From the NCBI GenBank assembly GCA_963746775.1, contig CAVVCK010000002.1:139571-203570 (forward strand): 64,000 nt of DNA, written 5' to 3'. Under the pieces are notes generated by a model that was not told where the DNA came from, ran no database searches, and saw only the letters and a list, made by a program, of their open reading frames with translations. The position numbers and the translations under genes are program-made. Below are positions 17,610 to 36,196 of the stretch, piece after piece. Position 1 is the first letter of the stretch. Every line of letters starts with the position of its first letter. This DNA is from an uncultured bacterium (GTDB lineage: Bacteria > Patescibacteriota > JABMPQ01 > CAVVCK01).

Positions 17610-20098
17610 CTAATTCACTCCATGCCAATTTTCTATAACTGCTATATCTGCTCCGTTTCTTAAGGTTTCATCGCCAAAAGCAAAGAAATTAGGCCATGTC
17701 CTCCATTTTCCAGTGGGCTCAAAAGCTAGCACTTGCGGCCCATTAGAACCTATAGGGGAAATTAAAAGTTCATCTTTGCCATCAAGGTCAATATCACCTG
17801 GAATATTCTTAAAGTTTCCTCTAACATTCTGTTGGTAAACCCACCAGAAATTCTTTCTAGCACCATTCTTATCAAAAACATTAACTTGAGAAGAGCCATT
17901 ATTGGGAGTAGTGTAAATTCTATCTTCTATGCCGGCAGCAGTTAAACCCTGGTTTATAGGAGCATCATAAGCCCAAAAGTCTTTCTTAAGAGTCCCACCT
18001 ACGGTATAGATCCAGACCTTGGGTTCAGCTACACCATGATTAGGGGTAACTAATAATTCTTCTGCCCCGTCATCATACTGGAATGTTCCTAAGTTGCAGC
18101 CATTAGCGCCATATGGAGCATCAAATTGATTAATTAATTCCCAGTTATCTACGCCAGTAGCATCTTTAAATATTTTAACGCGTGGACTGTAATCTCCTGT
18201 GAGACAAGCTGCTATGTCATCTTGAAAACCATCATTATCAAAATCTCCGGAAACCATAGAAAGACCATCTCTAATAGAGCTGGTATTAGCTTTATCATCG
18301 GGTTTTTGGAAAAGGAACATTTGTCCTTTAAGTACTAGAGAACCATCTTCTCTGAGGCCCATAACTCTTGCTTGAGGACCACCATTATTAATCGCAAAGA
18401 TTACAAACTGATCCTTTACTCCATTATTGTTTTGATCAATGGACACTATGCCTGCTCCACCAAGATAAGAAGGTGGGAAAAGACCTTCGTTAATTTTAAC
18501 ATCCGTTGCATTACCATGTCTATCATAAGCCCAAAGACGAGTTGTCTCTCCTGGACCGGAGGTGGTGAGGATTTTGGGGGAGAGGATGGGGGTAAGATCA
18601 GTATCAGTATCTGTATAGTATCAGTATCAGTATCAGTATCAGTATCTGTATCAGTTGTATCTGTGTCATCGCCTGTGGAAGTATCTAGAATGATAGTATC
18701 TGATATGATACTACTTGCTCCTTGAGCATTGCCTATTCTTGCATAGACTGTTTTTGTGCCATCTCCTGTAGTTAAGGTGTGAGTGGTCGTTGCACTAAAT
18801 GGTATGGCTGTACCATCTGATAAATCTGATTGGTTGCCTATTATCATGTAGGTAGCACCGCTATAGGATGAAAAAGTTAGGTCTACTTCTCTGATAGTGG
18901 TAGTGGAGGCTGCGGAGTTTATGGAGAGAGTGGGGTTGGAGGGGGATGTCGAGGTGGTGGCGTATTTAAGGGAGCCGGCTGTTTCATCATAATAGCTAAT
19001 GTGTAGATTATCTGATGAGTCAAGAGCGATAGAAGTATATAACCCAACACTATCAGCACCACCATTATCTACTACTGTACTTACCCAGCTACCTGATTGG
19101 TTGGTGGAATATTTTAGATCACCATCTGTAAAATCACCATAGCTAATGTGTACCTTATCCGAAGAGTCGAGAGCTATAGAAGTACAAAAACTAACATCAT
19201 TAGTACCTCCTCCATTATCTACTACTGTACTTACCCAGCTACCTGATTGGTTAGTGGCATATTCTAGAACACCATCTGAAGCATCACCATAGCTAATATG
19301 TACATTATCTGAAGAGTCGATAGCGATAGAAGTATCATATCCAACAGCATGAAGACTATCATCTACTGCTGTACTTACCCAGCTACCTGATTGGTTAGTG
19401 GCATATTTTAGATCATTATCTGTATAATCTTGATAGCTAATATGTACCTTATCTAATGAGTCGAGAGCTATGGAAGTATAAATTCCAACTCTATTAGCAC
19501 CACCATTATCTACTATCTCATTTTCAAAACTACCTGATTGGTTAGTAGCATATTTTAGATCATGATCTGTAAAATCACCATAGCTAATGTGTACCTTATC
19601 CGAAGAGTCGAGAGCTATAGAAGTAAAAATTCCAACACTATTAGCACCACCATTATCTACTATCTCATTTTCAAAACTACCTGATTGGTTAGTAGCATAT
19701 TTTAAATCACCAGCTATTTCATCACCATAGCTAATATGAACATTATCTGAAGAGTCGAGAGCTATGGAAGTATAAACTTCACTATGAATTTCAGTAGTAC
19801 CTACTCCATTATCTACTACTGTACTTACCCAGCTACCTGATTGGTTGGTAGTATACATAAGATTGCCTAATTCATGATTATAATAGCTTATATGAACATA
19901 ACCCAAAGAATCTATTGCTATTGAATCAAATTCACCATAATTAGTGGAACTATAATCTATATCTTCTATTGTCCAAGAAGCAGCTTTTACTTGATTTGGA
20001 AAACTTAAATTAATTACACCACATAGAGATGTTACTGTTATGATTGATATTAGCAGTAGGAATGATTTAGAGAAAAATGTTTTAATTCTTTTTTTCAT
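17610..20098 (-). pseudogene. large secreted surface protein (signal peptide, ~8 tandem ~44-aa beta-propeller-like repeats, (DT)n linker, shared FG-GAP-like C-terminal domain) interrupted by a 1-nt frameshift in a (GATACT)n tract near 18615
   Basis: Tracked ORFs 18446-20098 (550 aa) and 17610-18446 (278 aa, GTG start) are in different frames. The downstream frame reads open upstream as YYTDTDTDLTPILSPKILTTSGPGETTRLWAYDRHGN...GGAGIVSIDQNNNG. That is collinear with the paralogs at 20245-22173 and 29776-32829 (PKIITTSGPGE...GGAGIVSIDSNNNG). The unit gtata at 18611-18615 is one base short of the surrounding gtatca hexamers. Restoring one base fuses the two ORFs in frame. Confidence 0.55.
18601..18660. 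repeat. hexanucleotide microsatellite (GTATCA/GATACT)x~9, encodes (Asp-Thr)n linker; contains the frameshift
   Basis: Plus strand gtatca gtatct gtata gtatca gtatca gtatca gtatca gtatct gtatca. Confidence 0.8.
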
Positions 20099-20187
20099 AT
20101 TTTATTTATTTTAATAAATTATTATGCTTTATTATACTTCAATTTGTTAAATATGTCATTAATGAGAGCTGTGGATAAAATTTCAAT

Positions 20188-20224
20188 CAAAAAAGAGACC
20201 TCATTACAAGATCTCTTTTGTATT
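20188..20224 (-). terminator. candidate intrinsic terminator after 642-aa surface protein gene
   Basis: Minus strand: aaaagaga-tcttgtaatgagg-tctctttttt. The stem is imperfect, ~8 bp, followed by U6. Confidence 0.4.
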
Positions 20225-20244
20225 TTCTAATTACTAACCACACT

Positions 20245-22173
20245 CTAATTAACCCCATGATAATTATCTATTACCGCTATCCCCACTCCATTGCGAAGTG
20301 TCTCATCGCCAAAAGCAAAGAAATTAGGCCAGGTTCTCCATTTGCCTGAGGGCTCATAGGCTAGAACTTGGGGACCGTTAGAGCCTATAGGAGAGACTAA
20401 CAATTCATCGATGCCATCTAAATCGATATCTCCGGCAACATTGGTATAATCTCCTCTAATATGTTCCTGATAGGCCCACCAGAAGTTCTTTCTATTACCC
20501 TCTCTGTCAAAAACATTTATTTGGGAAGAACCGTTATTGGGAGTAGTATAGATTCGATCTTGAATACCAGAAGCTGTAAGTCCTGACTGAACACCTGCAC
20601 CATAGGCAGCAAATTGTTTTTGCAAAGTTCCATTTATCCAGTAAATATAAACATTAGGTGAAGCCATACCATGATTAGGAGTAACCAGAAGATCATTTCC
20701 CCCGCTATCATATTGAAAAGTGCCCAAATTACAGCCTACATTACCAAATGGTGCGCTAAATTCATGGGCTAGGTTCCAATTATCTATGCCTCTAACATCA
20801 GTATATACTCTAACTATAGGAACTCTATTCCCTGTTAAACAAAAAGCCGCATCATCTTGATAGCCATCATTATCAAAATCTCCACTAGTGGCTGATAAGC
20901 CATCTCTAATGTTAGAATCAAAAACAAATTGCTGTCCTAAGTAAGAAATAGTTTTATCTTCTTTAATGCCTATTACTCTGGCCTGAGGGCCACCGTTATG
21001 GATCGCGAAAATTAAGGCTTGATCCTTGACGCCATTGTTATTGCTATCGATAGATACTACTCCAGCACCACCAGCGTAGGAATCAGGGAAAAGTCCGGTA
21101 ATTACATCCCCCGTAGCAACACCTTTTCTATCATAGACTTGAGCCCTGGTTACCTCTCCGGGACCAGAAGTAGTGATTATTTTAGGAGAAATAGTAGCAC
21201 CAGATTCGGTAGTACGGGAGGCAGTGTCTTCATCTGAAGAGCTATCATCGGAGGAGTCATCGGAATCGTCTGAATCGTCTGAGCTATTACCAGCTAATTG
21301 CGCCATCATACTCCAAAAAGCCTGGCCTTTCTGATAGCAGTTAAAACAATGAGTATGGGCACAGCAGGTCTCGGGAGTACAATAACTGCAATAAGGGCTA
21401 CTGGAATGGCTGGCGCACCAGGTAGCACACCAGCTGCATTTTTCTGTTTCATTGGGATAAAAATTACCATCCGGGTCATAGCTTTCGATATCAGCAAAAT
21501 CATACAAAACTTTATTATTAGCTCGAGCTAGAGTTCTTATCTGTTCGTTGCGAGCATCGGTATTGGTTTTATCGCCATATGGCCAGTCATCATCATATAA
21601 ATGGCTAGTCATATAAACAAAGGTTACATTGGGATAATCTGCCTCTAATTTTCCCATTTCACTAAAATATCTATTAATACCTGCTTCTGTCGCATCTTGT
21701 ACTCCTGCACACCAAGACCACATTACTACATTAATAGATGAATCTGCATCTAATGCTTCACGGGTAATATAATACCAATCAGTGTAATCATAGGGATTCC
21801 AATCGCCTGTATGACCCAAATCAGTCTCGTAATGATCATCAATATATAACGAACCTGATTCACTGCCTGAGGTGTGATATTTATAAATACCCCCCTCAAC
21901 TTCTTCTATTCTGGAAAGTCCGGTAATAACTTGGCTTCCATGAGAAGTATGATTATAATATACCCTCAAATTTGATTTAGCATTATTGATAGCCGTCTCC
22001 GAAAGACCGCTTAGCGTTGCATCATTATGGTCAATAATTAAAGGGCTTGTTCGAGCTGCTTTTGCTTCTTTGGGCGTTTTAGAAAAAAATCCTCCCCAAA
22101 AAAACAAAGCTGTTACTAGAAAAAATACCATGCTATATACAAGATACTTTTTCTTTCTAAACATTTTTTTCAT
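20245..22173 (-). CDS. secreted surface protein: signal peptide, N-terminal Cys-rich domain of unknown function, acidic (SDD)n linker, shared ~300-aa FG-GAP-like C-terminal domain
   Basis: 642 aa. The N-terminus MKKMFRKKKYLVYSMVFFLVTALFF is a signal/anchor. A Cys cluster follows (CSWCATWCASHSSSPYCSYCTPETCCAHTHCFNCYQ), then an SDDSDDSDDSSDDSSSDED linker. The C-terminal domain is about 60-70% identical to those of the 17610 and 29776 genes and ends with the same final motif (HGVN or EVN). Confidence 0.6.
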   Translation of the reverse strand: MKKMFRKKKYLVYSMVFFLVTALFFWGGFFSKTPKEAKAARTSPLIIDHNDATLSGLSETAINNAKSNLRVYYNHTSHGSQVITGLSRIEEVEGGIYKYHTSGSESGSLYIDDHYETDLGHTGDWNPYDYTDWYYITREALDADSSINVVMWSWCAGVQDATEAGINRYFSEMGKLEADYPNVTFVYMTSHLYDDDWPYGDKTNTDARNEQIRTLARANNKVLYDFADIESYDPDGNFYPNETEKCSWCATWCASHSSSPYCSYCTPETCCAHTHCFNCYQKGQAFWSMMAQLAGNSSDDSDDSDDSSDDSSSDEDTASRTTESGATISPKIITTSGPGEVTRAQVYDRKGVATGDVITGLFPDSYAGGAGVVSIDSNNNGVKDQALIFAIHNGGPQARVIGIKEDKTISYLGQQFVFDSNIRDGLSATSGDFDNDGYQDDAAFCLTGNRVPIVRVYTDVRGIDNWNLAHEFSAPFGNVGCNLGTFQYDSGGNDLLVTPNHGMASPNVYIYWINGTLQKQFAAYGAGVQSGLTASGIQDRIYTTPNNGSSQINVFDREGNRKNFWWAYQEHIRGDYTNVAGDIDLDGIDELLVSPIGSNGPQVLAYEPSGKWRTWPNFFAFGDETLRNGVGIAVIDNYHGVN

Positions 22174-22214
22174 TTTGTTTTATATTATTTAAATGTAAGA
22201 AATTAGCTGTATAG

Positions 22215-22324
22215 AAATTTGAAGTTGGTAATAGAAACTGGAAATTAGATAAAAGATTTTCACTACTTTCTATTTTCTAATTTCCATTACAAATTTCTAT
22301 TTTCCAAATAACTATTTTCCTTTG
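22215..22324 (-). repeat. ~110-bp AT-rich intergenic repeat element, copy 2 (paralogous to 15751-15860), upstream of the 642-aa surface protein gene
   Basis: See copy 1. It starts 35 nt after the GNAT gene stop and ends ~40 nt before the start codon at 22173. Confidence 0.5.
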
Positions 22325-22358
22325 TATTCTGTGTATCTTAGTAAAATAATAATTATTA

Positions 22359-22688
22359 TTATAGATCTATCCGAAACTCCTTCCCATGATCGCTAAATCC
22401 TAATTTTTCATAAAGCCCATGAACTTTTTCTTTTTCGTACCTGCTTGTACAAACTAATTTATAACAATTATTTTCTTTAGCTTTTTTAATTATTTCATTG
22501 ACTAATCTTTTACCAATTCCCTTACCTCGAAAATCTTCATTAACAAAAACATCTTCCATAAACCCAAAAGGTTTCTCGTGTAAATCGTTGTAAAGCAAAT
22601 ATAAATAAGCTCGGCCAATATTTTTACCGTCTTGTTCTGCAACGATTTTAATTCCCTTACGATCTTTATTTTCAAATTTTATATTCAT
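22359..22688 (-). CDS. GNAT family N-acetyltransferase
   Basis: 109 aa. VFVNEDFRGKGIGKRLVNEIIKKAKENNCYKLV is the acetyl-CoA binding R/Q-x-x-G-x-G/A motif of GNAT motif A. Confidence 0.8.
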   Translation of the reverse strand: MNIKFENKDRKGIKIVAEQDGKNIGRAYLYLLYNDLHEKPFGFMEDVFVNEDFRGKGIGKRLVNEIIKKAKENNCYKLVCTSRYEKEKVHGLYEKLGFSDHGKEFRIDL

Positions 22689-22920
22689 AAATTAATTTAT
22701 TTACTCTTATAATTTAGCATATTTTAAATATTTAGAAAATACAAGATTTCTTGACTTTTGTTTTTACGCTAATGTTCTTTATATAGGCAGGATAATATAG
22801 ATAAAAATCCTCTTTTCTTTAAAACAAGGTCATTTTTCTCATCTTTTCATTCTGTTCTTAACTTTCGACATATTTTTTCTATCAATTTGCTTGACATCAA
22901 TATATATATTTATATAATAA

Positions 22921-23440: not shown

Positions 23441-23497
23441 TGGAAAATTGTTTTATTAGATAAAATATTTTATAATATTAACAACGTTCTTTTTATT

Positions 23498-23554
23498 AGC
23501 CACCATGGCCATAAATATTTATAAATTATTATAGCTATCTACGGCCATGGTGGC
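23498..23554. repeat. inverted repeat agccaccatggcc / ggccatggtggcc (13 bp, 12/13) around AT-rich 32-nt spacer; each arm itself palindromic (CCATGG core)
   Basis: Read directly from the sequence. No ORF context. Confidence 0.5.
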
Positions 23555-23695: not shown

Positions 23696-24856
23696 CTATA
23701 AAAATTTATTTATACTTCTTAAATTTTCAACAATCTCTTCTGCCAACTTCTGCCCGATATCTTTTATTTTCAATATTCCGTTCAGTCCTTCTTTTTTATA
23801 AATTACATCTAATCCTTCTTCTAATTCTTCCAAATTCCAAGCAGCTTTTCTATAAGCCCACTCTCTATATTTCATATTACCTGCAATTTGCATTTCTCTA
23901 GCTTTTAAATAAAATTTAGAAGCTATTTTTTTATTTATTTGTAAATCTTTTGGATAATAATTAACTTCTCTTAAAATATAATTTCTAATTTCATATTTCT
24001 TACAATATTTTTGAACCAGCTTATGTACTTTTATTGAATAATCACTAAATTCTTTTTCATTACTATATAAGTTTTTATATTTCAAAACTAAATCAGACTT
24101 ATATTTCTCTAATATTTTATAATAATAAGTTCCGCAATATCCCCATAGGGTCAGTCCCCCATCTAGAATATATTGCCCTCCGCTCTCTTTAGTTTTTGCA
24201 ACTACTTCTTCTATATTTTCTTCTGTATCATATATAAATGGCAAGATAGGCATAAAAACTGTGCCAGTAAATATATCCGCATCAGCTAACTTTTTCATAG
24301 CTTCAAAGCGAGAAGTTACCGAAGGAGATTTTGGTTCGAATATTCTTTTCACTTGATCATCCCTGGTAGTAATAATAGACCAACCAATATTTAAATAAGA
24401 TGCTTTAGATATTTTTTTTAATAATTCTAAATCTTCTAATAAATCAGGTGATTTTTCATTAAGAAAAACCGGAAATTTATGCTTTAGACAAATTTCTAAT
24501 AGTTTTCTAACTAATTTATATTCTCTATCAATATTTAAATAACCAGTCAGATAAATCAAATCTTTTTCTCTTCTTGGTAATATTCTATCTAATAGTTCCG
24601 GCGCATTTATTTTTATTTTTATATATTGTGAAAAAGGATCTTCTAAATTCTGAATCTCCGGATCAGCTGCTGCTCTGGAATTTTTATAAGGATTATATTT
24701 TTCATCTCTTTCATAGCAATAGCTACATCCCCATTCGCAACCCATATAAGGAGAGACAGAATATTTAGTCCAAAACCAACCGCCATCAACATGTTTTTGA
24801 GTATTTAGAATAGTTTTGGGTTTATATTCTTGGTAGATTATTTTTTTGCTTTTCAT
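23696..24856 (-). CDS. radical SAM DNA-repair photolyase-like protein (SplB/COG1533 family) with C-terminal extension
   Basis: 386 aa. The N-terminal region has SPYMGCEWGCSYCYER, a CxxxCxxC cluster. GCxxGCxYCY is typical of spore-photoproduct-lyase-like radical SAM proteins. Confidence 0.6.
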   Translation of the reverse strand: MKSKKIIYQEYKPKTILNTQKHVDGGWFWTKYSVSPYMGCEWGCSYCYERDEKYNPYKNSRAAADPEIQNLEDPFSQYIKIKINAPELLDRILPRREKDLIYLTGYLNIDREYKLVRKLLEICLKHKFPVFLNEKSPDLLEDLELLKKISKASYLNIGWSIITTRDDQVKRIFEPKSPSVTSRFEAMKKLADADIFTGTVFMPILPFIYDTEENIEEVVAKTKESGGQYILDGGLTLWGYCGTYYYKILEKYKSDLVLKYKNLYSNEKEFSDYSIKVHKLVQKYCKKYEIRNYILREVNYYPKDLQINKKIASKFYLKAREMQIAGNMKYREWAYRKAAWNLEELEEGLDVIYKKEGLNGILKIKDIGQKLAEEIVENLRSINKFL

Positions 24857-25544
24857 ATAATTTTTTTAATCGATCTTGAATTATTTTACTTTGCAATTCT
24901 TTTAAAGCATCTGTAGCAATCCACTTTGCAGTTTTATTTTCAATTTTCTCAATTTCTCGAGCAAACTTTATAGCTTCCCTATTTAAATTTAAATTTTTCT
25001 TGCCAATATTTCTTAGAGCCCAATTAACCGCCTTTCTAACAAAATTTCGATCATCAGTTACACCTTCTTTTATTATAGGGAAAAACTTTATAAAATAAGT
25101 ATCATTAGCCTCTTTATTATGCCAAGCTAAACAAGCAATTAAAGCATAAGCTGTTCTTTTTACAAATTCTTTGTCACTTTTATACCATTTATTTATTTTT
25201 TCTAAAGCATAAGATGTTTTCTCTAGTAAATTCATACACAACATATCACATACATCCCAATCCTGAATTTGTAATACCCATATATCTGCATCTTTGGATA
25301 TTAATTTTTTAGCATCACCTATAATAGAAGCTAGGATCATTGCCTCAGGAATTTTTGTCTCCCAAAGCTCAAGGGCTAAATTATGGTTTGTGCCAATTTC
25401 TTTGCCTATTTTCCTGATATTAGGTACTGAAACACCTAATCTACCCTTACCAGTTACACCAAAATTTTTGGAACTTTCAAAATATTTTTTGCTAGTTTTT
25501 GATTTTAGTTTATTTAAAACTTCTTCCAAATTATAATTTTTCAT
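24822..25544 (-). CDS. DNA alkylation repair protein (AlkC/AlkD-like HEAT-repeat glycosylase family)
   Basis: 240 aa, all-helical. The WVLQIQDWDVCDMLCMNLL and VRKAVNWALRNIGKKN motifs resemble the AlkD family (DNA_alkylation PF08713). Confidence 0.65.
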   Translation of the reverse strand: MKNYNLEEVLNKLKSKTSKKYFESSKNFGVTGKGRLGVSVPNIRKIGKEIGTNHNLALELWETKIPEAMILASIIGDAKKLISKDADIWVLQIQDWDVCDMLCMNLLEKTSYALEKINKWYKSDKEFVKRTAYALIACLAWHNKEANDTYFIKFFPIIKEGVTDDRNFVRKAVNWALRNIGKKNLNLNREAIKFAREIEKIENKTAKWIATDALKELQSKIIQDRLKKLYEKQKNNLPRI

Positions 25545-28559: not shown

Positions 28560-28619
28560 AGTTTAAATTATTAATAAAATATTTGTATATTTATGCATTC
28601 TTATTTTCAATTCAAAATT

Positions 28620-29600
28620 TTAACTTCTTGATTCTTTCTTTTTCTTAATTCTTCTTATAATTAATTTCACAATAATATACACAGCCACAATTACTGGTCC
28701 CAAGAAAATTATTACCCAAATTCCTACATTTATCAATCCTTGTAAAAATATAATCCAAGTTCGAAAAGCTTGCTTTAGTGTTTCATAAGGTTTCCATTCT
28801 TTAGTAGGGATATCTATTCTAGTTTCTTCACTTAAAGACACAGTGATAGTCGACATATCAGTTTGCCCTTCTAAATATTTTATTCTACCTTGAGTTGTTT
28901 CAATATAGCCTCGAACCACAGATAATTTTTCTGTAACTTTTAAAATATCCTCAACAGTGTCTGCTTTTTCTAAAATTGTTAAATATTGTTCTTCTTCGGC
29001 TTTATAATTCTTTAATTGTGCTTGTAAATCTGAATATTGTTCAGTCACATCTTGACCCGTTGAACTCTCGCTTTGTGTATCACCCAATTTTTTAATCTCA
29101 TTTATTGTCTCTTCATATCTGGTAACTGGAACTTTTAAAATAACTGTTCCCGATTGTGTTTCATCAGAACTAGTATATAAAGATGATGATAAAATAAAAC
29201 CATCTCTAGCTTTAGCTAGGTTAGTTAAACTAGTAACAGTGTTTCCCGCTTTTTCTACTTGTAAGCTTATATTACCAGTTTTAATAACTTTTTGTTCAGT
29301 TAATTCATCCTCACTATTATCTAAACTTGATCCAGCCGCTGTATTTGCTGGCATTGCTTCAGAAGAAATAGATTTCTCTTCCAAGTCCATTGGCATTGTA
29401 GTTCCCGTCCGACTTAAACTAGAATTAGATTCTAAACTGTTATAACTATAACCACTACCTGAAGAACTATATTGATTAGAAAAATAAACACCAACAATAA
29501 ACAATCCTATAACCAAACAAGCTGACACCGTCCCAGTTATTCCTAATATAATCCATAATTTCTTTTTTGATTTTTGTTTTGGAATTTGTGTTTCTGACAT
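28620..29600 (-). CDS. hypothetical membrane-anchored protein (N- and C-terminal TM helices, coiled-coil middle)
   Basis: 326 aa. TM helix near residue 15-40 and another at the extreme C-terminus. No catalytic motif was seen. Confidence 0.4.
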   Translation of the reverse strand: MSETQIPKQKSKKKLWIILGITGTVSACLVIGLFIVGVYFSNQYSSSGSGYSYNSLESNSSLSRTGTTMPMDLEEKSISSEAMPANTAAGSSLDNSEDELTEQKVIKTGNISLQVEKAGNTVTSLTNLAKARDGFILSSSLYTSSDETQSGTVILKVPVTRYEETINEIKKLGDTQSESSTGQDVTEQYSDLQAQLKNYKAEEEQYLTILEKADTVEDILKVTEKLSVVRGYIETTQGRIKYLEGQTDMSTITVSLSEETRIDIPTKEWKPYETLKQAFRTWIIFLQGLINVGIWVIIFLGPVIVAVYIIVKLIIRRIKKKKESRS

Positions 29601-29775
29601 TCTTTTATTTTATTATTTTATAATTATATTATAATCTATTTTTCGTTTGATTAATAGATCTAGCCACAGATTTAGCAGATTAAATTGCTAAATTAGTGAA
29701 TAGTTATTAATAGTTAGTAGTTGGACATTAATGCTTTATTTTTGATTCATGATTCTAAATTCTAGATTCTATCTC

Positions 29776-32700
29776 CTAATTCACCTCATACCAATTATCA
29801 ATAACCGCAATACCTACTCCATTTCTTAAACTTTTATCACCAAAGGCAAAGAAATTAGGCCAAGTTCTCCATTTGCCAGTAGACTCAAACGCTAGCACTT
29901 GGGGTCCATTAGATCCAATAGGTGAAATTAATATTTCATCCTTACCATCCAAATCAATATCTCCAGGAACATTTTTGAAATCACCTCTGATGTGCTGCTC
30001 ATACGCCCACCAGAAATTTTTACGATTGCCATCTTTATCAAAGACATTAATTTGAGATGAACCATTATTGGGAGTAGTATAGATCCTCTCCCCTATACCA
30101 GAAGGAGTAAGACCAGATTGCACACCTTCGCCATAAGCTGGAAAATATTCTTTTAAAGTTCCACCTACCGTATAGATATAAACATAAGGATCTGCTGGAC
30201 CATGGTTAGGTGCTACTAATATCTCCGAAGGGCCAGAATCATATTGAAATGTCCCTACGTTACAACCAACATTGCCAAAAGGCGCTGTGAAATCACCTAT
30301 TTTTTCCCAGTTATCAACTCCTTTTATATCTCTATAGATTCTAACATTTGGTGTTCGATCACCAGTTAAACAAGTGGCAATATCATCCGCATAACCATCG
30401 CCATCAAAATCACCAGCAGCCATTGATAAGCCATCTCTAATTGAACTATCAAAAACAAACATTTGTCCCAATAAATCTAAATCATTATCAGATTTTTGGG
30501 CCAATATTCTGGCTTGTGGTCCGCCATTTTTTAGAGCAAATATTACCATTGCATCTTTAAGTCCATTATTATTAGAATCAATAGAAACTATACCTGCTCC
30601 ACCTTTATAATTTGGTGGAAAAATATTATAAATCACTGATCCGGCAACATTACCTTGACGATCATAGGCTTGTAATTTAGATATTTCCCCCGGCCCTGAA
30701 GTAGTAATAATTTTAGGATCTATTGGTATATTTGTAATTGTGAAAGACCAGCTGCTTGATACTAAATTGTTATTATTATCAGCTGCTTCAATATTAACAA
30801 TTACTACCTCATTATAATCAAAATTTTCATCTGGATTTATACTTACCTCATAACCATTAGAATCATTAGGAGTCATAGTTATACTATATCCGGTTTGAAA
30901 AGTACTATTTACTATTACCTCTTCACTACTAATAGTTACGTGAATAGTAGCTGGATTTATACCAGCATTATCATCATTAATTGAAAATGTGATATTAGTA
31001 TCTTTAGCAATATCAGCAGCTCCATCAGCAGGATCTTGTCCGGTGATTTCAGGAGCATTAGTATCTCCACAACCAGGTATTACTCGATCGATACTACTAC
31101 ATTGTCCTCCTTGATTTATTTCAACTGACATTAAGGCTTGATTAGTCGCTACACAAGTAGTACTAGTTGATCCATATAAATCAGCACAAGCAGTATTAAG
31201 TGCATTATAGGCGCCATTAAAATCCATATTAGTAGTAAAATAATTAGTCAGGGCTCTATAAAAAATTTGTTCCATTTTATCACGTCCAATAGCACTTATT
31301 GTACAAGTATTATTAGTACCTCCTTCAGCCATTAAATAAGCAGCGTGGGAAATAACAGTACTATTATGATGGACACCACCATTATCATCATCACCACAAT
31401 ACATAAAATCACTATAAAATCTATCTGGCTGAGGACCAAGAATATCACTTACACTCTTCGGATCTGCTAAACTTCTAATAGGCCCTTGAAATGTTCCTGC
31501 ATTTATATTTTCACCCATTAACCAATTACCATCACCTGTCACATAATCCTCTACCTGAGCTCCAAAAATATCCGAATAAGCTTCATGTAATGCTCCTGAT
31601 TCATTTAAATAAGTAAGACCTCCGGGAATAGAATAATGAACTACCCCATGACTATACTCGTGAGCAGAGACATCTATGTCAACCATCCCATCACAAAAAT
31701 TAATCGAAAATCCATCGAAAAAGGCGTTTGGACAATCAAAAGCAGGATCAACCAAGGCTATTGGATCCAAATAAACCCAACCATCTGAATTTTCTACAGC
31801 GCTATAAGTCCCATCTCCTAATCCTCCCTGATTATTAGCTCCATTTCTGGAAAATCTTTCTTGAAAATAATTATAAGTAGAATTCATTATGCTATACAAA
31901 TTATCCGTATCTTTTAGCCCATAGATGGCATCTGGATTATTACCTCTGGCAGCTTGTCCTTCAGATCTTCCATAAATATAACCCATATAAAGAGTATCCA
32001 ACCCACAGCCAGCTCCGCCAGAATAAGGATAGTAATAACAATCTATTATCCTTCTATTTATATTGTAAGTTCCTGTAATTTGATAAACTAAACTTCCGCT
32101 ATGTGCATCTATATAAAAATATTCATGGCTTACCGGCTCCTTAATTAATTCTACTTCATAAACTAAATAATTCTTATTATCAGTCTTATTTTCAATAATC
32201 CCTTTATTAAATATTGTTAATTCATTCTTTAAAACTTTTACATTATTGGATGTTTTAAATTGTTTCTGCCAACTTTCCATAGCTTTATTCACCGCTTCTT
32301 CTTTTGATATATCGGGATTTGTATCTATATTAATATCAGGCACAATAATGCCATTAGCTGAAGAAATTTCTAGATTTTCTTTAACATGAACTGACATTTG
32401 TCCGGCAAAAACTGGAATATCTTTATATCTTTGGCTATACCAAAAATGTTTCATTCCTAAATTATCTTCTTTTTTATCTACTAACTTAGTTTCTTCTCTA
32501 GAATTACTTAAACCAAAATAACCACCATATTCAGCTACAAATTGATTAGCCATAGCTGCTGGTGTAAGATTTTCACTCGGATATTCTGCCAAAGTTATAC
32601 TTTGATTTTTACCTAAAGAATTAATAAAGGTTATTTTGCCGGTATTTTTATCCACAGCATATTCAAAATTATGCTTGTCTTTAAATTCTATCCCCTTGAT

Positions 32701-32829
32701 ACTCTTATTTATATTCGGATTATTATTAGCCAAAACTAAACCAGAACATATTATTAACGACAAACATAAAATAGTAACAAAAAGGCACAGGATTTCGGCC
32801 TTTTTAGCTAATTTTGTTAGTTTATTCAT
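29776..32829 (-). CDS. secreted thermolysin-like (M4 family) zinc metalloprotease with Ig-like middle domain and shared FG-GAP-like C-terminal domain
   Basis: 1017 aa with a signal peptide. VSAHEYSHGVVHYSIPGGLTYLNESGALHEAYSDIFG matches the thermolysin HExxH...NESGAINEAISDIFG motif (third ligand ExxxD). An Ig-like segment follows (PEITGQDPADGAADIA...). The C-terminal 300 aa are paralogous to the 17610 and 20245 genes. Confidence 0.7.
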   Translation of the reverse strand: MNKLTKLAKKAEILCLFVTILCLSLIICSGLVLANNNPNINKSIKGIEFKDKHNFEYAVDKNTGKITFINSLGKNQSITLAEYPSENLTPAAMANQFVAEYGGYFGLSNSREETKLVDKKEDNLGMKHFWYSQRYKDIPVFAGQMSVHVKENLEISSANGIIVPDINIDTNPDISKEEAVNKAMESWQKQFKTSNNVKVLKNELTIFNKGIIENKTDNKNYLVYEVELIKEPVSHEYFYIDAHSGSLVYQITGTYNINRRIIDCYYYPYSGGAGCGLDTLYMGYIYGRSEGQAARGNNPDAIYGLKDTDNLYSIMNSTYNYFQERFSRNGANNQGGLGDGTYSAVENSDGWVYLDPIALVDPAFDCPNAFFDGFSINFCDGMVDIDVSAHEYSHGVVHYSIPGGLTYLNESGALHEAYSDIFGAQVEDYVTGDGNWLMGENINAGTFQGPIRSLADPKSVSDILGPQPDRFYSDFMYCGDDDNGGVHHNSTVISHAAYLMAEGGTNNTCTISAIGRDKMEQIFYRALTNYFTTNMDFNGAYNALNTACADLYGSTSTTCVATNQALMSVEINQGGQCSSIDRVIPGCGDTNAPEITGQDPADGAADIAKDTNITFSINDDNAGINPATIHVTISSEEVIVNSTFQTGYSITMTPNDSNGYEVSINPDENFDYNEVVIVNIEAADNNNNLVSSSWSFTITNIPIDPKIITTSGPGEISKLQAYDRQGNVAGSVIYNIFPPNYKGGAGIVSIDSNNNGLKDAMVIFALKNGGPQARILAQKSDNDLDLLGQMFVFDSSIRDGLSMAAGDFDGDGYADDIATCLTGDRTPNVRIYRDIKGVDNWEKIGDFTAPFGNVGCNVGTFQYDSGPSEILVAPNHGPADPYVYIYTVGGTLKEYFPAYGEGVQSGLTPSGIGERIYTTPNNGSSQINVFDKDGNRKNFWWAYEQHIRGDFKNVPGDIDLDGKDEILISPIGSNGPQVLAFESTGKWRTWPNFFAFGDKSLRNGVGIAVIDNWYEVN

Positions 32830-32941
32830 TTGTTTTTTTGTTTTTGTTTTTTCTTACGAAATATATTTTATAAAATTCGTAAGGTAGAATTATCGAAAAA
32901 ATAACTATTTACTTACATCTATTATAGCATAATTTAACATT

Positions 32942-35900
32942 CTATTCAATATCAAACACTCGTACCTGTGGACTACCTAATGATCCTGGCATAGTCATCA
33001 CCTCATCCTTTCCATCACCATCAGTATCACCAGCCGCTACCACTGCTCCACCTATATGGCTCGAAGGATAAGCTAAGAATGTTTTCATAATACTTTGATC
33101 CTGCCCTCTATAAATTTTTACCCAGGCCTGCCCTTGCGTTCTTTGTGAAACTATTATTTCTTCTTTGCCATCGCCATCAACATCACCGCCTGCCAAAGAT
33201 AAACCTCCTCGAAAATCAGAAGAAAATGCATAAAAGCCTGGATTTAATCTGACTACTTTATTTGTCAGAGTGTTAAACATCTGTACGTGCGGAGCTCCCA
33301 CTTCCGGCCCAGTTAATATCTCAAATCGGCCATCATTATTAAAATCAGCCGTAGCTAATCTAATTCCTCCTCTAAAATTTTTGTCATAAGCCATTTCCGA
33401 AGCAATTAACTGCCCTTTATAATTATGTACAGTAAAATGCGGTCCACCACCTGCTGCTGCTGCTACAATTATTTCTGGCCGGCCATCCATATTAACATCT
33501 CCGCAAGCAATATTAGCTCCACCTTGAAATTTACCATCTAGTGCAAAAAATCCAGCATTAACTGTTGGCTCCCCTTTAGCATTAAATATTCTGATATGCG
33601 GCCTGCCCCCCTTACCCGGTGCTGTTACAATTTCATCTGTACCATCCATATCTAAATCACAAGTGGCTACTCTAACACCAGACCTTAAATGCTCAGCATA
33701 AGCAAAAAATCTACTTACAACATTTCCATTTCCATCAAAAATAGATACTTGCGGACCAAATCCTTCTGATGTACCCGTAATTATTTCATTAGGGCTAAGT
33801 ACTCCACCTATCACATTCCCAGAATAAATATGGTATCCACCCCGTAATCTTGTATCATAAGCATTAAAATCTAATTTACTTTCTTCTACTTGATCATCAG
33901 GCGGAAGAGAACCATCTTTATTTAAAATTATAAAACATCTTTCACAAATCCCAACTTGTCCATCCAAATTACTTACTTTTACATCATAATAGGCTGGAGG
34001 CATTAAACCAATAGGTGCTTCTACTGTTAATTTATTACTAGCATTAACTAATGTTTTAACAGATGATAATGATCCAAACATAGCAGTTGCTCCATAACTA
34101 AAGTTAGAACCATTAATATTTAACCAAATTGTTTGTGAAGAATTATCAGCTGGCGTATATCTATCTTTTGGTGAAACACTAGTCGGCTTTGGAGCTGGAT
34201 CAACATAAGGCGGTTCATTACCTTCCAGGGAAATTTCTCGAATTAAATCATTCCAATTATCAGCTATATACAACTTATTATGAGCTATATCAGGTAATAA
34301 ACCTTTGGGATTATTAAATCTAGATTCTAAGTTTTTACCATTCTTAAAACCTCTTTCGGTTTTACCGGCTATTGTTCGAACACTTCTTGATTCTATATCC
34401 ATATACTTAACTATTTGACTGCCAACTTCTGTAAAATATAAATTACCATCAGCCCCTACTTTGACATATTCTGGATAAGATAATACTGCTGTAGTACCAA
34501 TAGCATCACGATAACCATTATTACCATTACCAGCTACTGTTGTAACTTCAGTAGTTTCAATTTCTACTCTTCTTATCCGCTGATTATTACTATCAGCTAC
34601 ATATAAATATTTTCCACTTAAATCAATATCAATTCCAAATGGTCGATTAAACTTAGTAGCTATTCCCTTACCATCTGCAAAACCAGCACTTCCCGAGCCT
34701 GCTACTAAAGATGTTTGACCGTCAGCTATTTTTATTTTTCTAATTCTATTATTACCTGTATCTGAAACATATAAATATTCATCATTTGGTGATATTACTA
34801 TTCCTCCGGGTACATTAAATTTTGCCTCTGCCCCATTTCCTTCTGTATATCCATTACATGACTGATTGCAATCAGTTGATCCTCCCCCAGCTACTAGAGA
34901 TGTTTCTAGCGTACTTAAATTAATTTTTCTTATACGATTATTCCATCTATCCGCCACATATAAATTACTGCCAGAACTATCGATCGTTAAACTGGTAATG
35001 TTACTAAATCTAACCCTATCACCATCCCCCTCACGATAAGCATCCACTACACTACCAACAATATGAGTAGTACTGCCATCAGCTATTGTTATTCTTCTGA
35101 TAAAATTATTTTCTGCTAAGTAAATATATTGGCCGTCAGGCGACATAACTAAATCATTAGGCCGGCCTACTTTTGAATCAGCCTTTGAACCAAATTCATA
35201 ATTAAATCTATTTTTACCTGCTACCCGATCTTCTTCAGCTGAAACTGCTTCCTTTTCTTTATGAAATCTTTGAATAGTACCAATACCAGAATTAGCTACA
35301 TAAACATAATCTCCACTAGATGCAATTCCTTTGGGATAATTAACAGTAGACATCGCTGCGTCTTCGGCTAGAGTTGTAACATTGTTATTAGATAAATTAA
35401 TTTCACGAACGTAATCAGAATACCCATCACCATCGGTAACATATAAATAATTGCGGCCGGAATCTAGAGCTACACCAACAATATTTCTAAATTGAGCAGA
35501 AGTTCCAGCACCATCACTATAGCCAGCGCTGCCTGAGCCAGCAATTGTATTTTTTGAACCACTAGCAAGATCAATTTTAACAACTTGATAGCTTCCGCCC
35601 TCAGCTACATATAAATAATTGCCGCTAGAGTCTGTGGTTAATTTTTTAGGTGAACTTACTGAAGCATTAACAATACTCATGGTTCCTCCAGAAGTTGAAA
35701 TTTTTTTCACAGCATTATTGCCAGTATCAGAAATATATAAAGTTGATCCCTTTATGTAAAGACCTTCGGGATAGGATAATCCTTCGGAAACTAGAGTTGA
35801 TACTTGTCCTCCGGATATTTTTTTAATTTTATGATTATACGTATCGGCCACAAATACCGTATCACCTGAGACAGCAATACCCTTAGGTAAAGCAAATTCG

Positions 35901-36196
35901 GCACCAGAGTTTGATCCGGTTTTATCACCATAAGATCCGGATCCGGCCAAAGTGGAAATTTTATTAGAAGTATTAATCTTTCTTACTACATTATTATAAG
36001 TATCCGCAATATACATATTGCCGCTAGAATCATAAACTAAATCCTCGGCAAAATCTAAATAAGCATCTTTGGCATTTCCTCCATCACCCGAATAAATACT
36101 GCTCATATAAGTAGATACATCTCCATAGGCTGCCAAAGATAGGGTAGGAAGTAATAACAAAATTCCCGATAATATCAAAACTTTACCAATCCTCAT
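32942..36196 (-). CDS. secreted NHL-repeat beta-propeller protein with C-terminal FG-GAP repeats
   Basis: 1084 aa with a signal peptide (LSLAAYG). At least 10 NHL repeats are present (LYVADxxNNRIRKI, VFVADTYNHKIKKI, LYISDTGNNAVKKI). The C-terminal ~380 aa carry FG-GAP repeats (FFAY...GDVNMDGRPEII, GDTDGDGKDEV). Confidence 0.65.
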   Translation of the reverse strand: MRIGKVLILSGILLLLPTLSLAAYGDVSTYMSSIYSGDGGNAKDAYLDFAEDLVYDSSGNMYIADTYNNVVRKINTSNKISTLAGSGSYGDKTGSNSGAEFALPKGIAVSGDTVFVADTYNHKIKKISGGQVSTLVSEGLSYPEGLYIKGSTLYISDTGNNAVKKISTSGGTMSIVNASVSSPKKLTTDSSGNYLYVAEGGSYQVVKIDLASGSKNTIAGSGSAGYSDGAGTSAQFRNIVGVALDSGRNYLYVTDGDGYSDYVREINLSNNNVTTLAEDAAMSTVNYPKGIASSGDYVYVANSGIGTIQRFHKEKEAVSAEEDRVAGKNRFNYEFGSKADSKVGRPNDLVMSPDGQYIYLAENNFIRRITIADGSTTHIVGSVVDAYREGDGDRVRFSNITSLTIDSSGSNLYVADRWNNRIRKINLSTLETSLVAGGGSTDCNQSCNGYTEGNGAEAKFNVPGGIVISPNDEYLYVSDTGNNRIRKIKIADGQTSLVAGSGSAGFADGKGIATKFNRPFGIDIDLSGKYLYVADSNNQRIRRVEIETTEVTTVAGNGNNGYRDAIGTTAVLSYPEYVKVGADGNLYFTEVGSQIVKYMDIESRSVRTIAGKTERGFKNGKNLESRFNNPKGLLPDIAHNKLYIADNWNDLIREISLEGNEPPYVDPAPKPTSVSPKDRYTPADNSSQTIWLNINGSNFSYGATAMFGSLSSVKTLVNASNKLTVEAPIGLMPPAYYDVKVSNLDGQVGICERCFIILNKDGSLPPDDQVEESKLDFNAYDTRLRGGYHIYSGNVIGGVLSPNEIITGTSEGFGPQVSIFDGNGNVVSRFFAYAEHLRSGVRVATCDLDMDGTDEIVTAPGKGGRPHIRIFNAKGEPTVNAGFFALDGKFQGGANIACGDVNMDGRPEIIVAAAAGGGPHFTVHNYKGQLIASEMAYDKNFRGGIRLATADFNNDGRFEILTGPEVGAPHVQMFNTLTNKVVRLNPGFYAFSSDFRGGLSLAGGDVDGDGKEEIIVSQRTQGQAWVKIYRGQDQSIMKTFLAYPSSHIGGAVVAAGDTDGDGKDEVMTMPGSLGSPQVRVFDIE

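What the first reader, a model, noticed from the sequence alone, without database searches (positions are those of the whole stretch)
17610..36196. Island of giant secreted proteins built from swappable N-terminal modules on a shared FG-GAP-like C-terminal domain, with conserved 3' UTRs
Three genes (17610-20098, 20245-22173, 29776-32829) end in a ~300-aa domain that is about 60-70% identical. The domain runs from TTSGPGE...GGAGIVSIDSNNNG to the final motif HGVN or EVN. Their N-terminal modules are unrelated: beta-propeller-like 44-aa repeats, a Cys-rich domain, and an M4 thermolysin-like protease with an Ig-like segment. Acidic low-complexity linkers ((DT)n, (SDD)n) sit at the junctions. About 100 nt of 3' flank is also conserved between copies. 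The motif tagccacagatttagca(a/g)attaaatt occurs at 17543 and 29660, and gattctaaattcta...cctaattcac occurs at both loci. This indicates recent duplication or recombination of the C-terminal cassette together with its terminator region. Two further neighbours (2918-5554 M64-like protease, 32942-36196 NHL protein) also end in FG-GAP repeats. In an organism with little biosynthesis (inferred), such an array plausibly mediates attachment to or degradation of host or partner surfaces. The architecture may be undescribed.
Basis: partly seen in the sequence, partly recalled or inferred. Interest (0 to 1): 0.7.

Follow-up and report, generated by a model that had tools for sequence, protein, structure and literature searches.

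The report
Shared propeller domain on secreted enzymes
Several exported proteins of this small-genome (Patescibacteria-like) bacterium carry different enzyme or repeat modules in front of one shared, unannotated six-bladed calcium-loop beta-propeller, which probably acts as a common binding or tethering module and has been copied between genes at least once very recently.

Summary
The core observation is real. Three minus-strand genes end in a ~315-aa domain that is 69% identical in protein and 68% in DNA, behind unrelated N-terminal modules.

- Gene A (17610-20098) is broken by a 1-nt deletion in its (DT)n linker.
- B's "Cys-rich domain" has an SGNH/GDSL esterase-like fold.
- "M64-like" is not supported.
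- The genes are 640-1085 aa and form two pairs separated by 7.6 kb of unrelated genes.
- Only A and C share 3' flank sequence.

The domain is a confident six-bladed beta-propeller with FG-GAP/VCBS-type DxDxDG calcium loops. It is a distinct subfamily: about 25 clusters at 50% identity among 1.84 billion representatives, seen only in a few Patescibacteria/Parcubacteria MAGs. There it is fused to at least 10 partner modules, and it also occurs N-terminally or alone.

A, B and C are old paralogs, because their synonymous sites are saturated. Cassette exchange is nevertheless real:
- A fourth gene recorded on a contig of the same length, taken to be the same contig (P0161), has a 322-aa cassette 100% identical to A's behind an unrelated N-terminus.
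- B's cassette is 88% identical to one on a different protein in another organism, and DNA homology starts in the linker and stops at the stop codon.

The function, a shared tether or ligand-binding module for exo-hydrolases, is inferred. I rate this a new variant of a known kind, of moderate interest.

The parts
18446..20098 (-). Gene A, N-terminal ORF (550 aa). It contains a signal peptide, at least 6 copies of a 49-aa propeller-type repeat (18992-19846), a spacer and a (DT)n linker. The reading frame is lost inside the linker.
   Evidence: Orthologous N-termini fused in frame to the cassette exist elsewhere: P0035 at 54% and P0023 at 47%.
18597..18655 (-). (GATACT)10 hexanucleotide repeat encoding the (DT)n linker. 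One G is missing at about 18616/18617, which shifts the frame between gene A's N-terminal module and its cassette. This is either a pseudogenising lesion or a sequencing error.
17610..18587 (-). Cassette A: a six-bladed FG-GAP-like propeller (325 codons plus stop), in a different frame from the upstream ORF. From 'PKILTT' to the end (322 aa) it is 100% identical in protein to residues 612-933 of P0161, a 933-aa protein recorded on a contig of the same length (547,535 bp), taken to be the same contig.
20245..22173 (-). Gene B (642 aa): signal or anchor sequence, SGNH/GDSL-fold esterase-like module with a Cys-rich tail (21286-22056), (SDD)n linker, then the cassette (20245-21192).
   Evidence: The cassette is 88% identical to that of P0019, whose N-terminus is unrelated. 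DNA homology covers exactly 21252-20247.
29776..32829 (-). Gene C (1017 aa): signal peptide, FTP and PepSY propeptide, M4 thermolysin-type metalloprotease (HEYSH ... EAYSD), Big_5 Ig-like domain, then the cassette (29776-30723) joined directly with no acidic linker.
   Evidence: Orthologs with the same architecture are in L001, L003, L004, L005, L006 and L020.
32942..36196 (-). NHL-repeat propeller protein (1084 aa) ending in six canonical FG-GAP repeats, immediately upstream of gene C. The order 'NHL gene then cassette gene' recurs in L007 and L011.
2918..5554 (-). HExxH zinc-metalloprotease-like protein (878 aa; the family is not M64 by any test run here) ending in six canonical FG-GAP repeats.
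17540..17574 (-). Conserved non-coding block in the 3' flank of A, 31/35 identical to 29658-29692. It lies just upstream of A's terminator.
29658..29692 (-). Conserved non-coding block in the 3' flank of C. It lies about 60-90 nt upstream of the next gene (DUF4349, 28620-29600).
17583..17609 (-). GAATYTA-type heptamer repeats directly after A's stop codon. The same feature is at 29749-29775 after C and at 2904-2917 after the 2918-5554 gene.
17505..17544 (.). Bidirectional intrinsic terminator (A-run, hairpin, T-run) shared by gene A and the convergent pilin-like gene (17043-17456).
   Evidence: MFE -26.5 kcal/mol, z = -5.2.
20191..20219 (-). Intrinsic terminator hairpin plus T-run after gene B.

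Best explanation
**What it is**
- The shared segment is an autonomous, lineage-specific six-bladed beta-propeller of the FG-GAP/VCBS (integrin-alpha-type) kind.
- It keeps two canonical DxDxDG calcium-binding loops and one DxNxNG variant.
- In a narrow group of Patescibacteria/Parcubacteria it serves as one common module on many Sec-exported proteins.
- The other modules on these proteins are mostly hydrolases or binding repeats: M4 protease, SGNH/GDSL esterases, metallophosphoesterase, beta-helix, BNR-like and other propellers, Calx-beta, and Big_5 spacers.

**How it most likely works (inferred)**
- The propeller binds one common ligand, most plausibly an envelope glycan or surface protein of the cell itself or of its host.
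- That keeps or concentrates a battery of exo-enzymes at that surface.
- This parallels the choline-binding, CWB2, SLH and dockerin modules of other bacteria.

**How the family evolves**
- It grows by duplication, often tandem.
- The whole cassette is also replaced from time to time by recombination. The 5' breakpoint lies at or in the linker just before 'PKILTTSGPGE'. The 3' breakpoint lies at the stop codon.
- In this genome A, B and C are old paralogs.
- A's cassette appears to have been overwritten very recently by a copy of the cassette of a fourth gene, P0161. A is now out of frame in its (DT)n linker, so it is a probable pseudogene unless the missing base is a sequencing error.
For: **Shown: fold and family**
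- The three cassettes are 69% identical in protein.
- The AlphaFold2 model has pLDDT 88 and pTM 0.89, is all-beta, and has 23 strands, consistent with six 4-stranded blades.
- The DxDxDG loops are conserved in 41-46 of 46 family members at the blade 2/3 and 5/6 junctions.
- The profile search finds about 25 full-length 50%-identity clusters at E<=1e-125. There is then a gap to 1e-47, followed by a tail of 3588 multi-repeat proteins that mostly match the last blades.
- The window's own canonical FG-GAP proteins match the cassette profile at E 6e-39 and 1e-24.

**Shown: modularity**
- Partner modules were identified.
- The cassette is N-terminal in P0002 and P0025, and stands alone after a signal peptide in L023.

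**Shown: exchange**
- A and P0161 are 100% identical over 322 aa with unrelated N-termini.
- P0161's N-terminus has an ortholog in P0018 at 72%, whose cassette is 78% identical to A/P0161. A's N-terminal orthologs carry other cassettes.
- B and P0019 are 88% identical over 328 aa with unrelated N-termini. DNA homology of 79% runs exactly from the linker to the stop codon.
- A and P0018 DNA homology covers only 18584-17611.

**Shown: age of A, B and C**
- Identical-codon fractions are 0.49-0.52, against 0.48 expected.

**Support for the tether reading**
- B's SGNH-like module belongs to a family of more than 7000 proteins. In other phyla members are free-standing or carry Pfam domains I recognise, from memory, as T9SS sorting, FlgD-Ig and dockerin domains (PF18962, PF13860, PF00404).
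- A beta-propeller pilus protein mediates host binding in a cultivated Saccharibacterium (PMC11623550).
Against: - No ligand, localisation or expression data exist. The binding or tether role is by analogy only.
- Signal peptides were judged by eye.
- The cassette falls below the Pfam gathering scores for FG-GAP and FG-GAP_3 and has six blades rather than the seven of integrins.
- No solved structure is a sequence relative.
- The DNA of P0161 could not be retrieved. The A/P0161 identity is therefore known only at protein level, and an assembly artefact at a repeated 1-kb segment cannot be excluded.
- Many architectures (M4+Big_5+cassette, GDSL+cassette) are stable across genomes and cluster together in the cassette tree, so exchange is occasional rather than rampant.
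- That tree is neighbour-joining without support values.
Confidence: 0.6

Rival explanations
1. The propeller is a host-targeting adhesin or lectin, not a self-anchor. It directs the enzymes to the surface of the host or partner cell, so the family is an attack or attachment toolkit of an episymbiont.
For: - The VCBS/FG-GAP supercluster includes sugar-binding lectins (tachylectin, PVL) and integrins (PMC8023676).
- A beta-propeller pilus protein is needed for host binding in Saccharibacteria TM7x (PMC11623550).
- The domain occurs alone as a secreted protein (L023) and at the N-terminus (P0002, P0025), which suits a free binding module.
- Cargo such as an M4 protease and peptidoglycan/carbohydrate-esterase-like SGNH modules would act on foreign envelopes.
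Against: - No ligand is known.
- The same facts fit self-anchoring.
- In other phyla the SGNH-like module carries sorting or anchoring domains rather than adhesins.
- This rival differs from the main explanation only in whose surface is bound.
Confidence: 0.3
2. The identical A/P0161 cassettes and the frameshift are assembly or sequencing artefacts. On this view a 1-kb repeat was mis-resolved in a metagenome-assembled genome, and gene A is really intact with a cassette of its own.
For: - The identity is known only from predicted proteins recorded on contigs of the same length.
- Perfect 1-kb repeats are hard to assemble.
- The frame is broken by a single missing base inside a hexanucleotide repeat. 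Slippage would not produce that, but an indel error could.
Against: - Both genes are recorded on a contig of the same 547,535-bp length, taken to be one contig. That implies the repeat was spanned.
- An independent second case of cassette exchange (B versus P0019, in a different organism and sample) does not depend on this assembly.
- The identity starts exactly at the domain boundary, as expected for biology and as seen for B/P0019 and A/P0018.
Confidence: 0.15
3. The loci form a programmed cassette-variation system. Conserved boundary sequences (linker repeats at the 5' end, heptamer repeats or GC hairpins at the 3' end) promote frequent gene conversion. Frameshifted copies such as A act as silent donors, as in pilE/pilS-type antigenic variation.
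For: - Exchange breakpoints coincide with the cassette boundaries.
- GAATYTA repeats follow the stop codon of family genes in several low-GC genomes: 4 of 26 family ORFs against 5 of 160 other ORFs, p=0.02.
- In relatives, a GC-rich hairpin and a relic second copy of the last 8 codons follow the stop at five gene ends.
- A and C share a 35-nt non-coding block although their synonymous sites are saturated.
Against: - A, B and C have diverged to saturation, so conversion is rare.
- No recombinase or dedicated machinery is evident nearby.
- The variable part here is the enzyme module, not an exposed epitope.
- The heptamer statistic is weak, and B lacks these features.
- No relic copies occur in the window.
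Confidence: 0.07

Closest known systems
FG-GAP / VCBS beta-propellers (integrin alpha N-terminal domain; Pfam PF01839 and PF13517; VCBS supercluster of PMC8023676)
   Same: - Four-stranded blades.
- DxDxDG-type calcium loops at blade junctions.
- The 'GGPQ.rv...FFAF...G..ia.gD.D.DG..E' repeat pattern.
- Extracellular location.
- The profile cross-matches thousands of FG-GAP-repeat proteins, including two in this window.
   Different: - Six blades, not seven.
- Individual blades are strongly diverged.
- Below Pfam gathering scores.
- Fixed length with characteristic ends: PKILTTSGPGE at the start and NWHGVN at the C-terminus.
- Confined to about 25 clusters at 50% identity in a few Patescibacteria MAGs.
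Families of surface proteins with one shared wall-binding module and varied functional modules: pneumococcal choline-binding proteins, Clostridioides difficile CWB2 (Cwp) proteins, SLH-domain proteins, dockerin-bearing cellulosomal enzymes (from my own knowledge)
   Same: - Many paralogs per genome.
- Diverse hydrolase or adhesin modules joined by linkers to one conserved non-catalytic module that can sit at either end.
- Tandem gene arrangement.
   Different: - The shared module here is a single closed propeller, not a string of short repeats.
- Its ligand is unknown.
- The anchoring function is not demonstrated.
Vibrio cholerae biofilm matrix proteins Bap1 and RbmC (FG-GAP/VCBS propeller adhesins; retrieved among the full-text hits, details from my own knowledge)
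   Same: A secreted FG-GAP-type propeller that mediates adhesion to polysaccharide or surfaces.
   Different: - Eight-bladed propeller with an inserted beta-prism lectin.
- Not used as a common module on enzymes.
- Unrelated lineage.
C-terminal cassette swapping in polymorphic toxins (Rhs, CdiA; from my own knowledge)
   Same: Recombination at a conserved boundary motif that exchanges one end of a large secreted protein. Orphan or out-of-frame cassettes occur.
   Different: The polarity is reversed: here the C-terminal cassette is the constant part and the N-terminal module varies. There are no toxin or immunity genes.

Membership tests
FG-GAP / VCBS beta-propeller superfamily | Beta-propeller fold built of 4-stranded blades | tested here: met
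FG-GAP / VCBS beta-propeller superfamily | Ca2+-binding DxDxDG motif in blade loops (PMC8023676) | tested here: met
   D104-F-D-N-D-G109 and D254-I-D-L-D-G259 are conserved in 41-46 of 46 family members. There is also a D48-x-N-x-N-G variant. The other three blades are degenerate. Calcium binding itself was not tested.
FG-GAP / VCBS beta-propeller superfamily | Match to Pfam FG-GAP (PF01839) or FG-GAP_3 (PF13517) at the gathering score | tested here: not met
   A scores 24.8, B 22.9 and C 23.2 bits against 26.9 for FG-GAP_3. Scores are 19-21.4 against 22.1 for FG-GAP. Homology is nevertheless supported by the profile search.
Integrin-alpha-type propeller (narrow sense) | Seven blades | tested here: not met
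   Six repeat units in the sequence and model. The best structural neighbours are six-bladed.
Peptidase M4 (thermolysin), for gene C | M4 catalytic and helical domains, HExxH plus downstream Glu, FTP/PepSY propeptide | tested here: met
   Peptidase_M4_C 144 bits, Peptidase_M4 34 bits, FTP 39.8 bits and PepSY 31.8 bits, all above cut-off. The HEYSH and EAYSD motifs are visible.
   No M64 hit at E<=5. Only Reprolysin_5 at E=0.03. No NCBIfam hit. No PDB sequence relative. An HETGH motif is present.
NHL-repeat propeller, for 32942-36196 | NHL repeats above threshold | tested here: met
   NHL 117 bits against a cut-off of 20. TEN_NHL 75.6 bits.
SGNH/GDSL hydrolase fold, for the N-terminal module of B | SGNH alpha/beta fold, plus catalytic Ser and Asp/His blocks | tested here: inconclusive
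Wall-anchoring or sorting modules (functional class) | Demonstrated binding to an envelope polymer, or recognition by a sorting machine | not testable with these tools
   Only indirect: the same SGNH-like module carries what I take to be T9SS sorting, FlgD-Ig or dockerin domains in other phyla.

The most novel reading that the evidence does not exclude
The cassette and its boundaries may form a dedicated exchange system. Repeat-rich linkers on the 5' side, and conserved 3' elements on the other side, would act as recombination handles that let a small-genome symbiont re-deal one surface-binding propeller among its exo-enzyme genes. The 3' elements are GAATYTA heptamers, the shared 35-nt block, and, in relatives, a GC hairpin next to a relic copy of the last eight codons. 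Out-of-frame copies such as gene A would serve as silent donors.
Probability: 0.08. Interest if true: 0.7.

Novelty: new variant of a known kind. Interest (0 to 1): 0.42.

Why it matters
- Patescibacteria (CPR) depend on other cells, yet how they hold on to partners and feed on them is largely unknown.
- This family gives a concrete, testable handle. One compact, confidently modelled propeller is shared by a protease, esterases, phosphoesterases and binding repeats, so a single ligand-identification experiment would place a whole set of exo-enzymes.
- It also defines an unannotated domain family with clear boundaries that current Pfam models miss.
- It documents domain-level gene conversion in a very small genome.
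- The principle of a shared non-catalytic module on varied secreted enzymes is well known in other bacteria, so the advance is incremental rather than conceptual.

Tried and rejected
- **Alternative genetic code for the break in gene A.** Rejected. The downstream frame is shifted rather than interrupted by one stop type, and the lesion is a missing G in the GATACT repeat.
- **Recent duplication of A, B and C.** Rejected by synonymous-site saturation.
- **Gene conversion at the 3' ends of A and C.** Only marginal: 26 of 42 identical codons in the last 54 codons, against 0.48 expected.
- **Shared RNA structure or Rfam family in the conserved 3' block.**
  - There are no Rfam hits in the window except one tRNA.
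  - The block forms a hairpin in C but not in A.
- **Conserved 17-nt core in relatives.** Absent from the 15 loci fetched at that point.
- **Retrieval of the DNA of P0161, or of the window's own contig.** Not on record.
- **3' flank of the P0161 ortholog (P0018, L032).** It does not share the A/C block.
- **Phage origin.** No relatives in IMG/VR.
- **Solved-structure relatives by sequence.** None for the cassette, B's module or the 2918-5554 protease.
- **AFDB fold search.** The library was unavailable.
- **GC hairpin in relatives as a known RNA.** No Rfam match. Its folding energy is not distinct from shuffles in most copies.
- **A DGR reading of that hairpin.** Considered and dropped. The duplicated piece is only about 24 nt, and no template repeat or reverse transcriptase was seen in the fetched loci.
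- **Promoter formed by the gene end.** TTGGCA (inside the N-W-H codons), 17 nt, then TAGAAT just after the stop was flagged for both A and C. Promoter-like sites are no more frequent here than in shuffles, so I leave it as a note.


Full report
**1. What is in the sequence**

The region lies on the minus strand of a 29-33% GC window. The cassette-bearing genes themselves reach 35-39% GC.

Three genes end in the same ~315-aa segment:
- A: 17610-18587
- B: 20245-21192
- C: 29776-30723

Pairwise identity is 68.9-69.8% in protein and 67.8-69.0% in DNA, rising towards the 3' end. The segment runs from PKI(I/L)TTSGPGE to (W/Y)HGVN or WYEVN. It is not low-complexity.

The N-terminal parts are unrelated:
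- C has an FTP/PepSY propeptide, an M4 thermolysin-type protease and a Big_5 Ig-like domain, all above Pfam cut-offs.
- A has at least 6 copies of a 147-nt (49-aa) repeat.
- B has no Pfam or NCBIfam match.

The NHL protein (32942-36196) and the protein at 2918-5554 end in six canonical FG-GAP repeats.

**2. Corrections to the observation**

Gene A is not one open reading frame.
- Table-11 ORFs are 18446-20098 (550 aa) and 17610-18446 (278 aa, GTG start).
- Reading the sequence shows ...GATACT GATACT|ATACAG ATACTG.... One G is missing at about 18616/18617 inside the (GATACT)10 array that encodes the (DT)n linker. Downstream of it the cassette continues in another frame as ...DTDTDLTPILSPKILTTSGPGE.
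- A hexamer repeat cannot change frame by slippage. The lesion is therefore a point deletion (a pseudogene) or a sequencing error.

Other corrections:
- "M64-like" is not supported. No M64 model matches, and the best hit is Reprolysin_5 at E=0.03. An HETGH motif is present.
- The genes are 640-1085 aa, not giant.
- They do not form one island. A+B and C+NHL are two tandem pairs. Between them lie genes for a GNAT (my reading of the ORF at 22359-22688; it was not scanned), a radical-SAM protein, two DNA-alkylation-repair proteins, an HlyD-type protein and a DUF4349 protein.

**3. The 3' flanks**

- Local alignment of the whole flanks gives a 35-nt block at 31/35 identity between A and C. Its score is 50, against a maximum of 38 in 500 shuffles.
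- A-B and B-C are not better than shuffles, apart from generic terminator-like stretches.
- The first 27 nt from the stop codon onward are 22/27 identical between A and C by my count on the sequences. They consist of GAATYTA-like heptamers. In C about 50 extra nt separate this stretch from the 35-nt block.
- A has a strong bidirectional terminator (17505-17544, z = -5.2) shared with a convergent pilin-like gene. B has its own terminator. The shared A/C block forms no common structure.
- So "about 100 nt of conserved 3' UTR" reduces to roughly 60 nt in two pieces, for one pair only.

**4. What the cassette is**

- Pfam gives only sub-threshold FG-GAP and FG-GAP_3 hits.
- An AlphaFold2 model built on 12 family sequences is confident (pLDDT 88, pTM 0.89). 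It is all-beta with 23 strands.
- The sequence divides into six units with the FG-GAP pattern.
- Canonical DxDxDG loops at residues 104-109 and 254-259 of the B cassette are conserved in 41-46 of 46 family members. A DxNxNG variant at residues 48-53 is also conserved. These are the calcium-loop hallmarks of the integrin/VCBS group (PMC8023676).
- No PDB entry is a sequence relative.

**5. How big and how distinct the family is**

- A word-indexed search of 5.8 billion proteins found 15 clusters. Sources name them Parcubacteria or Patescibacteria.
- An exhaustive profile search of 1.84 billion representatives found about 25 full-length members at E<=1e-125. There is then a gap to 1e-47, followed by a tail of 3588 multi-repeat proteins that mostly match only the last blades.
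- The window's own canonical FG-GAP proteins fall in that tail, at E 6e-39 and 1e-24.
- In one genome per species of GTDB the cassette occurs at 13 loci. These come from about seven MAGs, nearly all labelled Patescibacteria, Parcubacteria or Saccharibacteria. Two low-coverage contigs are binned as Pedobacter. Several genomes hold several copies.
- JGI metagenomes add 16 loci, many of them duplicates of the GTDB loci.
- None occurs in IMG/VR.

**6. Modularity**

Partner modules in the family include:
- M4 protease with Big_5
- GDSL lipase/esterase
- metallophosphoesterase (with the purple-acid-phosphatase C domain)
- right-handed beta-helix
- BNR_4-like and SBBP propellers
- DUF7948
- Calx-beta
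- CARDB with CHB_HEX_C
- DUF7035
- Big_5 alone

Position and linkers:
- In P0002 and P0025 the cassette is N-terminal, straight after a signal peptide, and is followed by a (GD)n linker and another module.
- In L023 it stands alone after a signal peptide.
- Linkers before the cassette are very often acidic or proline-rich low-complexity strings of different kinds.
- When the cassette is C-terminal, the protein almost always ends ...(E/D)N(W/Y/F)HGxN.

Arrangement in relatives:
- Tandem pairs of cassette genes recur in L001, L003, L005 and L006.
- The order "NHL gene then cassette gene" recurs in L007 and L011.

**7. B's module**

- It has more than 7000 homologs at about 50% identity in many phyla. 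They are mostly 270-300-aa proteins with no Pfam annotation.
- Some carry Pfam domains I recognise, from memory, as T9SS sorting, FlgD-Ig, dockerin or DUF11 domains (PF18962, PF13860, PF00404, PF01345).
- The "Cys-rich domain" is therefore an esterase-like fold with a Cys-rich tail. Its catalytic residues were not verified.

**8. Old paralogs, but real cassette exchange**

A, B and C are old.
- Among identical amino acids, 49-52% use the same codon. Codon usage alone predicts 48%.
- So A, B and C diverged long ago.
- C has same-architecture orthologs in other genomes.

Two observations nevertheless show whole-cassette exchange.

(i) A and P0161:
- An exact-sequence look-up showed that the 90% cluster of A's second ORF contains one other protein, P0161 (933 aa). 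It is recorded on a contig of the same 547,535-bp length.
- Residues 612-933 of P0161 are 100% identical to A's cassette from PKILTT to the end (322 aa). Its first 610 residues (another propeller repeat plus two Big_5 domains) are unrelated to A's N-terminus. They are not encoded in the window except for generic Big_5 similarity to gene C.
- P0161's N-terminus has a 72% ortholog, P0018, whose cassette is 78% identical. A's N-terminal orthologs (P0035 at 54%, P0023 at 47%) carry in-frame cassettes only 66-71% identical to A's present one.
- The simplest reading is that P0161's cassette recently overwrote A's. This is an inference; the DNA was not retrievable.

(ii) B and P0019:
- B and P0019, from a different metagenome (L016), are 88% identical over the last 328 aa, starting inside the linker (EDTASRxTESG). 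Their N-termini are unrelated.
- DNA homology of 79% covers exactly 21252-20247 and stops at the stop codon.
- Likewise, A and P0018 DNA homology covers only 18584-17611.

The neighbour-joining tree of cassettes mostly groups M4 genes together and GDSL genes together. Architectures are thus usually inherited, with occasional swaps (no support values).

**9. Mechanism**

Shown:
- The fold.
- The calcium-loop motifs.
- The family limits.
- The modular use.
- The exchange breakpoints.

Read by eye, no predictor run:
- Exported-looking N-termini.

Inferred:
- The propeller is a non-catalytic binding module. It ties a set of exo-hydrolases and binding proteins to one ligand on the producer's own envelope or on a host surface.

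The inference rests on four points:
- The module is attached to many unrelated catalytic domains.
- It can sit at either end or stand alone.
- It belongs to a superfamily rich in lectins and adhesion receptors.
- The same SGNH-like cargo carries what I take to be anchoring or sorting domains in other phyla.

Whether the ligand is self or host cannot be decided here.

**10. Literature**

- Full-text searches for FG-GAP with Patescibacteria or Candidate Phyla Radiation found nothing on this family.
- The only hit is a passing mention of two FG-GAP-annotated large Cys-rich proteins in Peregrinibacteria (PMC4736985).
- The VCBS/FG-GAP propeller supercluster is described in PMC8023676. A host-binding propeller pilin in Saccharibacteria is described in PMC11623550.

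**11. Verdict**

The cassette and its modular use are real and recombination does happen, but A, B and C are not recent copies, and the conserved 3' flank is limited.
- The object is a previously unannotated, lineage-restricted six-bladed variant of the FG-GAP/VCBS propeller, used as a common module of secreted proteins.
- It is a new variant of a known kind, with moderate interest for CPR surface biology.

Noticed in passing
L001:3899-3980; L005:10946-11045; L006:2430-2490 and 5528-5600; L007:10946-11027; L023:1218-1285: In relatives with higher GC (41-46%; L023 is 37%), cassette genes end in TGA (TAA in L023). A GC-rich hairpin of about 45 nt follows (core CCTGCCCGCCACGCTAGCCGAGTCTGCGAGGCGTTGCGGGCGGG). 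After it comes a second, diverged copy of the last 8 codons (for example GAGAATTGGCATGGGGCGAATTAG, which reads ENWHGAN*). In three cases the hairpin sits inside that relic at the Trp codon (GAGAATTG|hairpin|GCAYGG), and the L023 variant is similar. The hairpin core was found only at these gene ends in all fetched loci. There is no Rfam match and no such relic in the window. It could be a recombination scar, a small insertion that brings its own gene end, or something else. Unexplained.
   Followed up: partly
window 17583-17609, 29749-29775, 2904-2917; L016/L017 and L020 after the cassette stop: Tandem GAATYTA-type heptamers start at or just after the stop codon of FG-GAP-ending genes in the low-GC genomes, with up to about 9 units in L017. 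They occur after 4 of 26 family ORFs against 5 of 160 other ORFs (Fisher p=0.02); one of the five 'other' hits is the FG-GAP-ending gene at 2918-5554. The gene end plus the first heptamer also reads as a sigma-70-like site: TTGGCA or TTGGTA, 17 nt, then TAGAAT.
   Followed up: partly
window 17540-17574 and 29658-29692: A 35-nt non-coding block is 89% identical between the flanks of A and C, although synonymous sites in the adjacent coding sequence are saturated. It has no shared secondary structure and no other copy in the window or in the 15 loci fetched at that point. The reason for its conservation is unknown.
   Followed up: partly
window 21286-22056 (-): The N-terminal module of B belongs to a very large family (more than 7000 proteins) that is widespread across phyla. 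It has invariant TSHGxQ, WSWC and CxH motifs and a predicted SGNH-like fold, but no Pfam or NCBIfam model. It is a candidate for a new esterase family definition.
   Followed up: partly
window 17043-17456 (+): A type IV pilin-like gene (N-terminal methylation motif, PF07963) converges on gene A and shares its bidirectional terminator. This may be relevant because pili mediate host contact in cultivated Patescibacteria.
   Followed up: no
window 18992-19846 (-): The 49-aa propeller repeats of gene A are 77% identical to each other in DNA over 5.8 copies. That suggests fairly recent internal amplification or homogenisation of blades.
   Followed up: no
P0015 (JGI, 338 aa): A Ser/Thr kinase N-terminus is joined mid-blade to the last three blades of the cassette on a 2.2-kb contig. 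This is probably a chimeric assembly rather than a real fusion.
   Followed up: no
window 24822-25544 and 25645-26385 (-): Two adjacent paralogous DNA-alkylation-repair (PF08713) genes lie between the two cassette gene pairs.
   Followed up: no
window 18001-22000 and 30001-36000: Cassette-bearing and FG-GAP genes are 34-39% GC, against 26-33% in most of the rest of the window. This may reflect Gly/Asp/Pro-rich composition rather than foreign origin. It was not tested.
   Followed up: no
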